Shown here: positions 7,688 through 38,060 of the stretch, one piece after another
How positions within the stretch are numbered: position 1 is the stretch's first letter
Layout: every line of letters begins with the position of its first letter
Assembly (NCBI RefSeq): GCF_002854065.1
Contig: NZ_CP024147.1
Direction: 5' to 3' (one strand)
DNA from: Escherichia coli
GTDB taxonomy: Bacteria > Pseudomonadota > Gammaproteobacteria > Enterobacterales > Enterobacteriaceae
Length of the DNA: 64,000 nucleotides
Notes under the pieces: model-generated
Databases searched by the model: none
Seen by the model: the letters and a program-made list of their open reading frames with translations, nothing else
Told to the model about the DNA's origin: nothing
Position numbers and translations under genes: made by a program

Positions 7688-7859
7688 ATTAAATACATCC
7701 TGTCTGCTGCGAACAATATCTGTAGTGAATATCAATATCCATTGAAGGCGTCAGTATGGCTATTTTCTCGATGAATAAAAATAGCTTTATTCAGCCACCG
7801 CATTCATAACTTATATATTTTATTTATTAATTGGCTGTATATATTTTTAAAATAAATGC

Positions 7860-7895: not shown

Positions 7896-9881
7896 TTAAT
7901 TTGGGGTTACGATATTCACCCACAAATCGAAATTATCCAGACAGGCGATAATTTCTTCCAGTTTCGCGCCATTGCCAATAATTTTGGCTTTCTTCGCTTT
8001 TACCAGATCTGCCATTTTGGCTTGTCCGGTCAGCACGGCGTGCAGATCTTCACGACTGATGTAGAAAGAGGCGTCAGCTTGGGATTGCAGCGTTTTACGG
8101 TAGTTAAGCACGCTATCGTTCAGCGTCAGGTTGAGGTTATCGCCGTTGCTCATATTGAAGTTCAGGCTGATATTTTTACCCGCGGCTTTTTCGCTATCGA
8201 GGCGAACGGACATAAAGTCGAACAGCATTTCGACCGACATTCCGCGAATGGTGTCCGGGGAACCGGTGGTGCCGTGGCTGAACTTATGCACCCCTTCGCG
8301 CAGCTCTTTCGCGCCGGTCAGGTAGAAACCGCGCCATGTGGCGGACTCGGCCTGATAGCCCAGCTGTTCAAAGTTATTCGCTTGCAGATTCTTCGCGACC
8401 TGGTCACCCGGGTTGGCGGCAATCACCTGTTTCAGCAGTTCTGCCGACCAGCGGTAATCACCTTGCTTGTTCGCTTCTTGCGCCAGGTTGATGACACGGG
8501 CAGAACCGCCCAGCGCTTTCACGTAACGTTTGCCCATCTCTACCTGACCATACGGATGCAGGTTAGCCGGGTTACCGTCGTAATAGCCAAGATAGAAGTT
8601 ATACACCGCGCGGGCGTTGTGGCTGACAGAACCGTAATAGCCACGGCTGGCCCAGTTATTGGCAAGTGCAGGCGGCAGCTTAATCATGTCGCCGATTTCA
8701 TTCATGGTGTAGCCCTGGTTCGCCAGATGCAGGGTTTGATCGTGAATATACTTGATGGTATCGCGATATTTACCAATATAATCATTGATATGCTTATTGC
8801 CCCAGACCGGCCAGGTGTGCGGCATAAACAGCACTTCCGCGTCGTTACCCCACATATCCAGCGTTTCGTTCAGGTACTCGGTCCACTTGCTGGTATCGCG
8901 GGTTTTCGCGCCGCGCAGAGTGTAGAAGTTGTGCAGGGTATGCGTGGCGTTCTCGGCGGTACACAGGGCTTTCAGGGCCGGAATATAGAAGTGCATTTCG
9001 GCTGGTGCTTCGCTACCTGGGGTCATCAGGAAGTCAAACTCCAGGCCGTCGATAATCATCTTCTCGCCAGTTCTGACGATAGTTTTAGTCGGTGCAATAA
9101 TGCTCGGGTCGCCCGTTGCCAGCGTCACGCCAAGGCCATTACCCACGTTGCCTTGCGCGTTGTGTGGCAGTAACAGACCGTAAGAGTAGAGCGCACGGCG
9201 GCTCATGATGTTACCCGCCAGCACGTTTTCGCTGATGGCTTCGTCCATAAAGCCAGCAGGGGCAATCACCTGAACTTTGCCGGATTTAACATCGGCTTCA
9301 GAGATAATGCCTTTCACGCCACCATAGTGGTCGGTGTGGCTGTGAGTGTAGATAACGGCAACAATCGGTTTTTGCGGACGATGCTGGAAGTAAAGGTCAA
9401 GTGCGGCTTTTGCGGCAGGTGGCGTCACCAGCGGGTCGATAACAATAATGCCTTTCTCGCCCTCAACGAACGTAATGTTAGAGATATCCTGGCCGCGCAC
9501 CTGATACATTTTATCGGTGACTTTGAACAGGCCAGAAATGCCGTTGATCTGCGACTGACGCCACAGGCTGGGGTTTACGGTTTCCGGCGCTGCGGCATTA
9601 ATATCAAATTTGTAATCGTCCGCGCGGTAGTAAACTTTACCGTTCGCATCACGCAGAATACCTTCATCCAGCAGCGGGGCGATAAATCCACGCTGGGCAT
9701 CGTCAAAATCCTGACGATCGCTAAACGGTAATGATTTGGCGTAATTCTGATTAACCTGTTGGGTATATTGAGTGGCGGCTTTCGCTTCCTCTTTCGCGTT
9801 AGCGGTATTTACCATCATGCCGCTGACGGCGGTTAACGCAATAACAATCCTGCTCAAACGGAATAACTGAGAGTTATTCAT
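7896..9881 (-). CDS. yjcS: Alkyl/aryl sulfatase, metallo-beta-lactamase fold (661 aa from MNNSQ)
   Basis: Signal peptide, HSHTDHYGG metal-binding motif typical of MBL-fold alkylsulfatases. Confidence 0.88.
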
Positions 9882-10171
9882 ATAAATCTCCATTTATCAT
9901 TTATGTCGTAAATATGTAATCCATGCAAAATACGTCATTTAAAGCTGGTGTTATCATAATTGGGAAATTGCGACTTTAATAAGTGGAAGTGTGAGCAGAA
10001 CGATCCATTTTATTAGGCATTTGTGCTGAAGAGGGAAAATTACGGCATATTTATTACTATCATCAATAATGTGACCTGACTTATATTTTTATTATTTATA
10101 TTACTTTCAGCTTTCACTTCGACAAGAAGTACGCACAATGATTAATTAGATGAATGATGCGGAGTGTAACC

Positions 10172-10879
10172 ATGAAACCCGTCGTGCTGGTGGTGGATGA
10201 TGACACGGCTATCTGCGCACTGTTGCAGGACGTGTTAAGTGAACATGTCTTTACGGTTTCAGTCTGCCATACCGGACAGGAGGCCATATTGCGTATTGAG
10301 GGCGATCCTGACATTGCGCTGGTGGTGCTGGATATGATGCTACCCGATACCAACGGCCTGAGGGTATTGCAGCAAATCCAGAAACTGCGTCCGACATTGC
10401 CGGTGGTGATGTTGACCGGCATGGGCAGTGAGTCTGATGTGGTGGTCGGGCTGGAAATGGGCGCGGATGATTACATCTGCAAACCGTTCACCCCGCGGGT
10501 GGTGGTCGCACGACTGAAAGCGGTGTTGCGACGGGTTGGTGCGCTGGCGGTTAATGACGAGAAAAGCGCCGGGCTGTCATTCAATGGCTGGTATCTCGAT
10601 ACCATGCGCTGCCAGTTGCACAATCCGCTTCAGCAACATGTCGAGTTAACTCAGGGCGAATATGGCTTGTTACTGGCTCTGGCGCAAAACGCGCGTCGGG
10701 TATTGAGCCGCGAGCAGTTGCTGGCGTTCACCCACAGCGACAGCGTGGAGGTGTTTGATCGCACCATCGACGTATTAATCATGCGCTTACGACGCAAAAT
10801 CGAACTCAACCCGCATCAGCCGATGTTGATTAAAACTCTGCGCGGTCTGGGGTATGTCTTCGCTGCCGACGTGCATTAA
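10172..10879 (+). CDS. OmpR/PhoB-family response regulator (receiver plus winged-helix)
   Basis: MKPVVLVVDDD...ALVVLDMMLPDTNG receiver motifs, C-terminal LRGLGYVF wing; GGAG 7 nt upstream of ATG at 10172 (track ORF begins at 10154). Confidence 0.85.
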   Translation: MKPVVLVVDDDTAICALLQDVLSEHVFTVSVCHTGQEAILRIEGDPDIALVVLDMMLPDTNGLRVLQQIQKLRPTLPVVMLTGMGSESDVVVGLEMGADDYICKPFTPRVVVARLKAVLRRVGALAVNDEKSAGLSFNGWYLDTMRCQLHNPLQQHVELTQGEYGLLLALAQNARRVLSREQLLAFTHSDSVEVFDRTIDVLIMRLRRKIELNPHQPMLIKTLRGLGYVFAADVH

Positions 10880-32006: not shown

Positions 32007-32390
<384 letters not shown>

Positions 32391-36504: not shown

Positions 36505-38007
36505 ATGCTGAAAAGGAAAAAAGTAAAACCGATTACCCTTCGTGATGTCACCATTATTGATGACGGTAAACTGCGTAAAGCCATTACCGCAGCATCACTG
36601 GGTAATGCAATGGAATGGTTTGATTTTGGTGTTTATGGTTTTGTTGCTTACGCATTAGGTAAAGTTTTTTTCCCGGGGGCTGACCCCAGCGTGCAGATGG
36701 TTGCTGCACTTGCCACTTTCTCCGTTCCCTTTCTGATTCGACCGCTTGGCGGACTCTTCTTTGGTATGTTGGGCGATAAATATGGTCGCCAGAAGATCCT
36801 CGCTATCACTATTGTGATTATGTCGATCAGTACGTTCTGTATTGGCTTAATACCGTCCTACGACACGATTGGTATTTGGGCACCGATTCTGCTGTTGATC
36901 TGTAAGATGGCACAAGGTTTCTCGGTCGGCGGTGAATATACCGGGGCGTCAATATTTGTTGCGGAATACTCCCCTGACCGTAAACGTGGCTTTATGGGCA
37001 GCTGGCTGGACTTCGGTTCTATTGCCGGGTTTGTGCTGGGAGCTGGCGTAGTGGTGTTAATTTCGACCATTGTCGGCGAAGAGAACTTCCTCGACTGGGG
37101 CTGGCGTATTCCGTTCTTTATTGCTCTGCCGTTAGGGATTATCGGGCTTTACCTGCGCCATGCGCTGGAAGAAACTCCGGCGTTCCAGCAGCATGTTGAT
37201 AAACTGGAACAGGGCGACCGCGAAGGTTTGCAGGATGGCCCGAAAGTCTCGTTTAAAGAGATTGCCACTAAATACTGGCGCAGCCTGTTGACATGTATTG
37301 GTCTGGTAATTGCCACCAACGTGACTTACTACATGTTACTGACCTATATGCCGAGTTATTTGTCGCATAACCTGCATTACTCCGAAGACCACGGGGTGCT
37401 GATTATTATCGCCATTATGATCGGTATGCTGTTTGTCCAGCCGGTGATGGGCTTGCTGAGTGACCGTTTTGGCCGTCGTCCGTTTGTGCTACTTGGTAGT
37501 GTTGCACTGTTTGTGTTGGCGATCCCGGCGTTTATTCTGATTAACAGTAACGTCATCGGCCTGATTTTTGCCGGGTTACTGATGCTGGCGGTGATCCTTA
37601 ACTGCTTTACGGGCGTTATGGCTTCTACCTTGCCAGCGATGTTCCCGACGCATATCCGTTACAGCGCGCTGGCGGCGGCATTTAATATTTCGGTGCTGGT
37701 TGCCGGTCTGACGCCAACACTGGCGGCCTGGCTGGTCGAAAGCTCGCAGAATCTGATGATGCCAGCCTATTACCTGATGGTAGTGGCGGTGGTTGGTTTA
37801 ATCACCGGCGTAACCATGAAAGAGACGGCAAATCGTCCGTTAAAAGGTGCAACACCGGCGGCGTCAGATATACAGGAAGCGAAGGAAATTCTCGTCGAGC
37901 ATTACGATAATATCGAGCAGAAAATCGATGATATTGACCACGAGATTGCCGATTTGCAGGCGAAACGTACCCGCCTGGTGCAGCAACATCCGCGAATTGA
38001 TGAATAA
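36505..38007 (+). CDS. proP: Proline/glycine betaine:H+ symporter, osmosensing MFS transporter (500 aa from MLKRKK)
   Basis: MFS motifs and C-terminal coiled-coil (IDDIDHEIADLQAKRTRLVQQ). Confidence 0.9.
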   Translation: MLKRKKVKPITLRDVTIIDDGKLRKAITAASLGNAMEWFDFGVYGFVAYALGKVFFPGADPSVQMVAALATFSVPFLIRPLGGLFFGMLGDKYGRQKILAITIVIMSISTFCIGLIPSYDTIGIWAPILLLICKMAQGFSVGGEYTGASIFVAEYSPDRKRGFMGSWLDFGSIAGFVLGAGVVVLISTIVGEENFLDWGWRIPFFIALPLGIIGLYLRHALEETPAFQQHVDKLEQGDREGLQDGPKVSFKEIATKYWRSLLTCIGLVIATNVTYYMLLTYMPSYLSHNLHYSEDHGVLIIIAIMIGMLFVQPVMGLLSDRFGRRPFVLLGSVALFVLAIPAFILINSNVIGLIFAGLLMLAVILNCFTGVMASTLPAMFPTHIRYSALAAAFNISVLVAGLTPTLAAWLVESSQNLMMPAYYLMVVAVVGLITGVTMKETANRPLKGATPAASDIQEAKEILVEHYDNIEQKIDDIDHEIADLQAKRTRLVQQHPRIDE

Positions 38008-38060
38008 GCTGAAACAGATGGCCTGATGTGACGCTGTCTTATCAGACCAACAATTGAACT

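What the first reader, a model, noticed from the sequence alone, without database searches (positions are those of the whole stretch)
10876..10879. Convergent regulator and kinase genes share overlapping stop codons
The response regulator (plus strand) stops at TAA 10877-10879 and the PfkB kinase (minus strand) stops at TAA read from 10876-10878. The two convergent genes therefore overlap by 4 nt with no room for a terminator, implying read-through transcription from each gene into the antisense of the other.
Basis: seen in the sequence. Interest (0 to 1): 0.3.

Follow-up and report, generated by a model that had tools for sequence, protein, structure and literature searches.

The report
Two convergent genes sharing TTAA stop
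The virulence regulator gene rbfR and a sugar kinase gene on the opposite strand really do end in one shared TTAA, but this 4-base tail-to-tail overlap is a common, well-described and probably neutral way for bacterial genes to abut.

Summary
TTAA at window 10876-10879 holds the TAA stop of an OmpR-type response regulator (+ strand, 10172/10154-10879) and the TAA stop of a PfkB sugar kinase (- strand, 10876-11877). RefSeq annotates the same ends. Homologue alignments give no reason to move either stop.

The regulator is RbfR (Z5684), part of the riboflavin-responsive RbfSR system of E. coli O-island 167. The kinase is the last gene of the island's sugar transporter/isomerase/aldolase/kinase operon.

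Four-base convergent overlaps (CTAA, TTAA, CTAG, TTAG) are a recognised class. E. coli K-12 has 58-75 convergent overlaps, and this window holds a second one (pmrB/pmrR).

Across 70 Enterobacteriaceae species the same gene pair converges with spacing from -22 to +3428 nt. The -4 state is the most frequent (14 loci). The Escherichia junction is about 24-30 nt shorter than its relatives. The overlap therefore looks like neutral compaction rather than a device.

I found no canonical intrinsic terminator, stable structure or Rfam RNA at or near the junction, here or in the homologous loci. Transcripts must therefore end inside the partner gene, most plausibly by Rho. That step, and any antisense cross-talk, is inferred and not shown. 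Interest is low.

The parts
10876..10879 (.). TTAA tetranucleotide that holds both stop codons: TAA of rbfR at 10877-10879 on +, and TAA of the kinase as the reverse complement of 10876-10878.
   Evidence: The same 4-nt overlap is in the RefSeq annotations. The 200-nt junction is >=99% identical in 399 of the 410 E. coli genomes that carry the island, and 100% in 19 of the 20 sampled rows.
10172..10879 (+). rbfR (Z5684), an OmpR/TorR-like response regulator of 235 aa. The longest ORF starts at 10154, but homologues and PGAP start at 10172.
   Evidence: Pfam REC + Trans_reg_C. 100% identical by tblastn to the regulator gene of O157:H7 Z903, which RefSeq annotates as WP_000805929.1. Z5684 is named RbfR in PMC9860305. 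Homologue alignment A1.
10876..11877 (-). PfkB-family carbohydrate kinase of 333 aa, the last gene of the island's sugar operon.
   Evidence: Pfam PfkB, E 1e-35. Homologues of 330-340 aa. RefSeq product 'carbohydrate kinase family protein'.
11874..12734 (-). Class II ketose-1,6-bisphosphate aldolase. Its stop overlaps the kinase start by 4 nt, a co-directional overlap.
12749..13432 (-). D-lyxose/D-mannose isomerase (the Z5688 family).
   Evidence: Pfam Lyx_isomer, E 1e-91. RefSeq annotation.
13487..16937 (-). Sugar ABC transporter genes: substrate-binding protein 13487-14428, permease 14447-15421, ATPase 15418-16937. The ATPase gene is frameshifted in this window.
17051..19315 (+). rbfS (Z5692), a hybrid histidine kinase (HAMP-HisKA-HATPase-REC). 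It is divergent from the operon, at the opposite end of the island from rbfR.
   Evidence: Pfam. RefSeq annotation. PMC9860305.
10997..11204 (+). C-rich, G-poor tract (C/G 1.4-1.75 in 78-nt windows) on the rbfR transcript, 118-325 nt past its stop. Candidate Rho loading region; this is an inference.
10369..10602 (-). C-rich, G-poor tract (C/G 1.75-2.83) on the operon transcript, 274-507 nt past the kinase stop, antisense to rbfR. Candidate Rho loading region; this is an inference.
10843..10893 (+). Marginal imperfect hairpin (-12 kcal/mol, 9-nt loop, two G-U pairs) followed by AUUUCUGU directly after the rbfR stop. It is not a canonical terminator.
   Evidence: Found only by my permissive scan, which gives about 400 hit clusters across both strands of the 64 kb window. 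Not found by the standard scan and absent from the MFE and centroid folds.
10792..10838 (-). Marginal A/U- and G-U-rich hairpin (-10 kcal/mol) followed by UUUUGCGU, 38-84 nt past the kinase stop and inside rbfR codons RRKIELNPHQPM. It is not a canonical terminator.
   Evidence: The same weak palindrome recurs in homologues because it encodes a conserved peptide.

Best explanation
The TTAA is a shared stop tetranucleotide where two authentic genes meet tail to tail. One is rbfR (Z5684), the response regulator of the RbfSR two-component system. The other is the PfkB kinase gene that closes the sugar transporter/isomerase/aldolase/kinase operon of O-island 167.

The overlap is the product of neutral loss of the spacer between the genes. 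The Escherichia lineage is about 24-30 nt shorter here than Citrobacter or Enterobacter. That loss trimmed six residues from the regulator's tail and one or two from the kinase's tail, both of which are unconserved.

The junction came to rest at the commonest compact state. The reverse complement of a TAA/TAG stop preceded by T or C is itself a stop for the partner gene.

The tetramer has no function of its own. Because no intergenic DNA is left and no canonical intrinsic terminator lies in either gene, each transcript must end inside the other gene. The most likely mechanism is Rho-dependent termination once ribosomes leave at the stop codon, since C-rich, G-poor tracts lie 120-500 nt downstream on both strands. 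Collisions between converging polymerases may contribute.

Shown: the gene identities, the stop positions, the overlap, the absence of canonical terminators, and the evolutionary lability of the junction. Inferred: the mode and position of termination, and any antisense effect.
For: Sequence and ORFs. Pfam assignments. RefSeq annotations with the same overlap. Z5684 = RbfR and Z5692 = RbfS in OI-167 (PMC9860305).

Homologue alignments show variable tails after conserved cores. Escherichia RbfR ends ...FAADVH, while other genera end ...FAADVxHxxKAA. DNA alignment A3 shows the Escherichia-specific shortening.

A survey of 70 species representatives gave gaps of -22 (3 loci), -19 (2), -4 (14), 0 to +14 (16), +21 to +184 (19) and +499 to +3428 (16). 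The -4 state occurs as TTAA, TTAG and CTAG and with several different kinase tail lengths. Another Escherichia lineage has a 7-nt overlap.

The literature already describes the class: a jump at overlap length 4 for convergent genes caused by those four tetramers, 58 convergent overlaps in E. coli with only 20% of the genes having a predicted intrinsic terminator (PMC2174442), and 75 convergent overlaps in a later count (PMC4161906).

No canonical terminator was found. Fold z-scores were +0.85 and +0.67. There was no Rfam match. C/G-skewed tracts lie downstream on both strands.
Against: No transcript data were available, so the 3' ends are unknown. C-rich tracts are typical of the antisense of any coding region, so they do not specifically indicate Rho sites (16-25% of all 78-nt windows in the window reach C/G >= 1.3).

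Two marginal hairpin-plus-U candidates lie within 85 nt of the junction and could terminate a fraction of transcripts.

The convergent orientation of regulator and operon is conserved in every locus where both genes were found. This leaves room for a selected function of the arrangement, though not of the TTAA itself.
Confidence: 0.75

Rival explanations
1. The tail-to-tail arrangement is a selected regulatory device, similar to an excludon or to overlapping 3' UTRs. Read-through from the induced sugar operon would produce RNA antisense to rbfR, or rbfR read-through would produce RNA antisense to the kinase. Either would give feedback by transcriptional interference, polymerase collision or duplex RNA cleavage.
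For: The convergent orientation of regulator and operon is conserved in all 70 loci where both genes were found. Half of these (35 of 70) have 14 nt or less between the genes. No canonical terminator separates the genes in any of them.

rbfR is itself regulated: 9.1-fold by riboflavin and 15-fold by RpoS. A tor-box-like CCGTTCATAT lies in the operon/rbfS divergent promoter, which suggests RbfR controls the operon that runs into it. Synthetic work shows that antisense transcription can tune genes in E. coli (PMC4731013, abstract only, listed).
Against: The spacing is highly labile (-22 to +3428 nt). In 16 of 70 species other DNA is inserted between the genes, including REP elements, a hok/gef-like toxin gene and fimbrial genes. 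An obligatory antisense coupling should not tolerate this.

The operon decays in several Escherichia lineages while rbfR stays intact. The lyxose isomerase gene Z5688 had only 0-90 reads across eleven conditions (2 in plain LB) in published RNA-seq, so collisions would be rare. No transcript evidence exists.
Confidence: 0.12
2. Cryptic intrinsic terminators embedded in the partner coding sequences end both transcripts close to the junction, so there is little read-through.
For: A permissive scan finds an imperfect hairpin plus AUUUCUGU right after the rbfR stop (10843-10893, +) and a weak hairpin plus UUUUGCGU 38-84 nt past the kinase stop (10838-10792, -). In E. coli, 20% of genes in convergent overlaps do have predicted intrinsic terminators inside the partner gene.
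Against: Neither candidate passes the standard criteria. Both have long loops, G-U pairs and interrupted U tracts. The permissive scan gives about 400 hit clusters across both strands of the 64 kb window. The + strand candidate is absent from the MFE fold, and neither region folds better than shuffled sequence. Real terminators elsewhere in the window are far stronger (for example -24 kcal/mol at 7855).
Confidence: 0.1
3. The overlap is an annotation artefact: one of the two genes truly ends elsewhere or is not a real gene.
For: Both C-terminal tails are unconserved, and the Escherichia regulator is 6 residues shorter than in other genera.
Against: Both ORFs have strong Pfam matches over their full length and thousands of homologues. 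The stop codons are read directly from the sequence in the frame fixed by those homologies. The short Escherichia RbfR is experimentally active in phosphotransfer and DNA binding (PMC9860305).
Confidence: 0.02

Closest known systems
Four-nucleotide convergent (tail-to-tail) stop-codon overlaps in prokaryotes (tetramers CTAA, TTAA, CTAG, TTAG; Lillo & Krakauer 2007, PMC2174442; also Kingsford, Delcher & Salzberg 2007, cited from my own knowledge)
   Same: Two opposite-strand genes whose stop codons share one of the four permitted tetramers (TTAA here). Both genes are real. The overlap arose by movement of stop codons or loss of the spacer.
   Different: Nothing essential. This instance involves a characterised virulence regulator (rbfR), and its junction could be traced across 70 species.
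pmrB/pmrR convergent overlap in the same window (25 nt) and the 58-75 convergent overlaps of E. coli K-12
   Same: Convergent E. coli genes with no intergenic DNA, so termination must occur within coding sequence.
   Different: pmrR is a small regulatory membrane peptide gene embedded at the 3' end of pmrB, with a longer overlap. Here the overlap is limited to the stop codons.
Bidirectional intrinsic terminators and programmed RNA polymerase collisions at convergent gene pairs (Ju et al. 2019, cited from my own knowledge; Wang et al., bioRxiv 10.1101/2022.10.23.513370)
   Same: The problem to be solved is the same: ending two converging transcription units at one place.
   Different: Those systems need an intergenic stem-loop flanked by A and U tracts. 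None is present here.
Excludons (Listeria) and overlapping 3' UTRs processed by RNase III (Staphylococcus aureus), cited from my own knowledge
   Same: Convergent genes whose transcripts would be complementary at their 3' ends.
   Different: Those cases rest on mapped long antisense transcripts and reciprocal expression. Here no transcript data exist, and the spacing is evolutionarily labile.
TorS/TorR (with TorT) two-component system of E. coli
   Same: RbfS and RbfR are reported as 43% and 56% similar to TorS and TorR (PMC9860305). A periplasmic binding protein gene lies in the locus, and a tor-box-like decamer lies in the divergent promoter.
   Different: The RbfS encoded in this window shows no Hpt domain in Pfam. 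The two genes are split to opposite ends of a sugar operon. The reported signal is riboflavin.

Membership tests
4-nt convergent stop-codon overlap class | Two authentic protein-coding genes on opposite strands, tail to tail | tested here: met
   Full-length Pfam matches. 7386 and 3606 homologues with E <= 0.001. RefSeq CDS on both strands.
4-nt convergent stop-codon overlap class | Shared tetramer is CTAA, TTAA, CTAG or TTAG, with both stops in frame | tested here: met
   TTAA at 10876-10879. Frames are fixed by homology.
4-nt convergent stop-codon overlap class | Stop positions are compatible with homologues, with no truncation of conserved core | tested here: met
   Conserved cores end at ...YVFAADV (regulator) and ...AIDGAKTLEEL (kinase). 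Only the variable tails differ.
RbfR (Z5684) / OmpR-TorR-type response regulator | Receiver domain plus winged-helix DNA-binding domain, with the phospho-acceptor Asp | tested here: met
   PF00072 and PF00486. Invariant D15, D16, D60 and K110 in alignment A1.
RbfR (Z5684) / OmpR-TorR-type response regulator | Same protein and locus as the characterised EHEC O157:H7 gene in OI-167, between yjcS and the phn cluster, with hybrid kinase Z5692 at the other end | tested here: met
   100% tblastn identity to the O157:H7 Z903 gene and the same synteny. PMC9860305 names Z5684 and Z5692 in OI-167.
Bidirectional intrinsic terminator of convergent genes | G+C-rich stem-loop flanked by an A tract and a U tract between or at the gene ends | tested here: not met
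   No site on the + strand in 9800-12900, and none on the - strand downstream of the kinase stop. Fold z-scores +0.85 and +0.67. Only marginal candidates in a permissive scan. None in the 70 homologous junctions.
Rho-dependent termination | Untranslated, C-rich and G-poor, unstructured RNA of about 80 nt downstream of the stop codon | tested here: inconclusive
   C/G 1.4-1.75 at 10997-11204 (+) and 1.75-2.83 at 10369-10602 (-). Such tracts are common in the antisense of coding DNA. No Rho data are available.
Excludon / antisense-coupled convergent pair | Mapped long transcript that overlaps the opposite gene, with reciprocal expression of the two units | not testable with these tools
   No usable transcript data were found. 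The supplements of PMC4048457 held no entries for these genes, and PMC9860305 has no supplements held.

The most novel reading that the evidence does not exclude
The conserved convergent placement of rbfR against the 3' end of the sugar operon it probably controls, with no terminator between them in most Enterobacteriaceae, could be an antisense or collision-based feedback loop. Operon induction would then dampen (or rbfR induction would insulate) expression of a regulator that drives LEE virulence genes in EHEC.
Probability: 0.1. Interest if true: 0.45.

Novelty: already known. Interest (0 to 1): 0.1.

Why it matters
It matters little as a structural feature. A shared TTAA stop is a routine outcome of genome compaction and is already recorded in the public annotation of 410 complete E. 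coli genomes.

The only wider relevance is that one partner is rbfR, a regulator of the EHEC type III secretion genes. If operon read-through did modulate rbfR, sugar availability and virulence regulation would be linked at the level of transcription. That remains a low-probability speculation until strand-specific 3'-end data exist.

Tried and rejected
1. Moving the stops. Alignment with 19 homologues of each protein and in-frame extension in 80 loci gave no reason to move either stop.

2. A hidden intrinsic or bidirectional terminator. The standard scan, RNA folds of both strands, my own permissive scan and a strict scan of 70 homologous junctions found nothing canonical. The permissive scan is too noisy to count as evidence.

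3. A known RNA element. An Rfam E-value search of 9000-13500 gave no match.

4. Published transcript evidence. The strand-specific EHEC RNA-seq paper mentions only Z5688 at very low counts, and its supplements held nothing for Z5684-Z5692. The RbfSR paper's datasets are not held.

5. The published 21-bp RbfR site of the ler promoter. It has no match with 3 or fewer mismatches in the window. The TorR decamer gives only one 1-mismatch hit, in the operon/rbfS promoter, and the total count is not above chance (39 found against 44.7 expected). This is a lead only.

6. Conservation of the overlap as a sign of function. I rejected this because the spacing ranges from -22 to +3428 nt across species.

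Full report
**Observation**

The window reads ...GCC GAC GTG CAT TAA tcc gac... at 10862-10885. The + strand ORF 10154..10879 stops at TAA 10877-10879. The - strand ORF 10876..11877 stops at TAA, the reverse complement of TTA at 10876-10878. The two ORFs share the four bases TTAA (10876-10879).

**Gene identities**

- The + ORF carries a receiver domain and an OmpR-type winged-helix domain. The - ORF is a PfkB-family carbohydrate kinase.
- Upstream of the kinase on the - strand lie a class II ketose-bisphosphate aldolase, a D-lyxose/D-mannose isomerase and three sugar ABC transporter genes.
- Beyond these, a hybrid histidine kinase gene lies on the + strand.
- The block sits between yjcS and yjdP/phn, where E. 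coli K-12 has the als operon.
- It is present in 410 of 5426 complete E. coli genomes, including O157:H7 and O145.
- The literature names this block O-island 167. It identifies the regulator as RbfR (Z5684) and the hybrid kinase as RbfS (Z5692). This is a TorSR-like system reported to respond to riboflavin and to activate ler/LEE (PMC9860305).
- Z5684 is also RpoS-dependent (PMC2907692).
- The window itself is closest to E. coli strain 100416 (99.95% identity) rather than O157:H7 (98.5%).

**Are the stops real?**

PGAP annotations of three different strains place the two 3' ends exactly as the ORFs do, with a 4-nt overlap. PGAP starts the regulator at window 10172, which agrees with all homologues (MKP...).

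In the regulator alignment the conserved core runs to ...GYVFAADV. Escherichia proteins then end with H. Citrobacter, Enterobacter, Kosakonia, Cedecea, Lelliottia and Leclercia proteins continue with xHxxKAA.

In the kinase alignment the core runs to ...AIDGAKTLEEL, followed by 4-14 variable residues.

Both stops therefore fall in unconstrained tails.

**How unusual is it?**

It is not very unusual. [quoted passage not shown] They count 1,890 convergent overlaps in 58 genomes, of which 1,218 are 5 nt or longer, and 58 in E. coli (PMC2174442). Huvet and Stumpf count 75 convergent overlaps in E. coli K-12 (PMC4161906).

The reason is built into the code. The reverse complement of YTA is TAR, so a TAA or TAG stop preceded by a pyrimidine also stops the partner gene in one frame.

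In this 64 kb window, five annotated convergent pairs have spacings of +118, +138, +95, -25 (pmrB/pmrR) and -4.

**Evolution of this junction**

A scan of one genome per GTDB species returned 80 loci that encode the kinase. In 70 of them the regulator gene lies downstream, always convergent.

| Distance between the two stop codons | Number of loci |
|---|---|
| -22 | 3 |
| -19 | 2 |
| -4 | 14 |
| 0 to +14 | 16 |
| +21 to +184 | 19 |
| +499 to +3428 | 16 |

- The -4 state occurs as TTAA, TTAG and CTAG. It occurs with several different kinase tail lengths, in Escherichia, Enterobacter, Lelliottia, Leclercia, Silvania and Huaxiibacter.
- Another Escherichia lineage has a 7-nt overlap (CTATTGA).
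- A DNA alignment shows that the Escherichia junction lacks about 24-30 nt present in the other genera. This accounts for the shorter tails of both proteins.
- Several of the Citrobacter spacers in the +21 to +184 class carry REP-like palindromes.
- The longer spacers carry a hok/gef-like toxin ORF, fimbrial genes or other genes.
- The junction is therefore a labile site that repeatedly collapses to the -4 state. This is the pattern expected from neutral spacer loss, not from selection on the tetramer.

**Termination**

- The standard scan finds no terminator-like site on the + strand anywhere in 9800-12900. On the - strand it finds none downstream of the kinase stop, and the total count is at chance level (3 found against 3.5 expected).
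- Folding 161 nt across the junction on either strand gives energies no better than shuffled sequence (z +0.85 and +0.67).
- Rfam finds nothing.
- A deliberately permissive scan finds an imperfect hairpin plus AUUUCUGU directly after the rbfR stop, and a weak hairpin plus UUUUGCGU 38-84 nt past the kinase stop. That scan gives roughly 400 hit clusters across both strands of the 64 kb window. True terminators elsewhere in the window are far stronger.
- A strict scan of the 70 homologous junctions finds no canonical terminator between the genes, even where 21-184 nt of spacer exist.
- In E. coli only 20% of genes in convergent overlaps have a predicted intrinsic terminator.

Both transcripts must therefore run into the partner gene. 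Once ribosomes leave at the stop codon the RNA is untranslated. C-rich, G-poor tracts follow on both strands: C/G 1.4-1.75 at 10997-11204 on +, and 1.75-2.83 at 10369-10602 on -.

From established knowledge of E. coli, Rho terminates untranslated and antisense transcripts. Rho-dependent termination within a few hundred nucleotides is therefore the most likely outcome. Such tracts are common in the antisense of coding DNA, so this is an inference and not a demonstration. Head-on polymerase collisions can also stop convergent transcription, but the described mechanism requires a stem-loop (bioRxiv 10.1101/2022.10.23.513370), which is missing here.

**Could the arrangement be regulatory?**

The constant convergent orientation is compatible with antisense or interference coupling between rbfR and the operon. 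So are the lack of terminators and a tor-box-like decamer in the operon/rbfS promoter.

Three points count against it:
- The spacing is extremely variable, and unrelated DNA is inserted in 16 of 70 species.
- The catabolic genes decay in several Escherichia lineages while rbfR remains intact.
- Published read counts for the operon's lyxose isomerase gene (Z5688) are very low.

I give this reading about 10%.

**Verdict**

The feature belongs to a well-described and probably neutral class, and it is already recorded in public annotation. Interest is low.

Noticed in passing
window 15418-16937 (- strand), indel at about 15693/15694: The island's ABC transporter ATPase gene carries a 1-nt deletion (GGCCCGCG to GGCCGCG) relative to the closest genome NZ_CM128593.1. 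This shifts the frame, and the ORF stops at 15618. It is either a pseudogene or an assembly error.
   Followed up: partly
L083, L085 (other Escherichia lineages); L088 (E. coli R32_14_1F): The catabolic part of the island erodes while rbfR stays intact. Some Escherichia lineages have only ATPase-permease-SBP-kinase, with no isomerase or aldolase. In strain R32_14_1F the kinase and aldolase are partial pseudogenes.
   Followed up: partly
window 17006-17025 (+), between the ATPase start (16937) and the rbfS start (17051): CCGTTCATAT followed by TTGTCATATT resembles tandem TorR 'tor boxes' (CTGTTCATAT). It is the only 1-mismatch hit in the window. It suggests RbfR controls the divergent operon/rbfS promoter. 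The published 21-bp RbfR site from ler has no match in the window.
   Followed up: partly
L042, L047, L048, L066, L069, L077, L078, L079, L022 (between kinase and regulator): In Cedecea, Buttiauxella, Atlantibacter, Franconibacter and Dryocola, a 0.5-1.1 kb insert at the same junction encodes a roughly 50-aa hok/gef-like type I toxin (MKPTRSVVVCLLIVCVTL...CEVKIR...EVAAKLAC). I recognised it by eye only, with no family search.
   Followed up: no
L003, L004, L010, L012, L014, L015, L031, L037, L044 (junction spacers): Citrobacter and some other genera carry one or more REP/BIME-like palindromes (GCCTGATGCGCTACGCTTATCAGGCCTAC, GCCGGATAAGGCG...) between the two stops. These give spacers of 52-154 nt.
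   Followed up: no
window about 37988-38012 (L086 11989-12013): A second convergent overlap lies in the window: pmrB and the small gene pmrR overlap by 25 nt in the RefSeq annotation of the closest genome.
   Followed up: no
window 19428-20060 (+): A GNAT-family acetyltransferase gene lies between rbfS and yjdP in this window and in strain 100416, but is absent from O157:H7 Z903. The Pfam match is just below the gathering score.
   Followed up: partly
window 17051-19315 (+): RbfS shows HAMP, HisKA, HATPase_c and REC domains but no Hpt domain in Pfam, unlike TorS. PMC9860305 reports direct phosphotransfer to RbfR. A ribose-binding-protein-like SBP gene (13487-14428) in the operon could act as a TorT-like co-sensor; that is speculation.
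   Followed up: no
window 32107-32289: BLAST against the closest genome shows a repeat of about 183 nt aligning twice around this position, with 17 bases (32190-32206) left unaligned in the window. This points to a small repeat-associated length difference.
   Followed up: no
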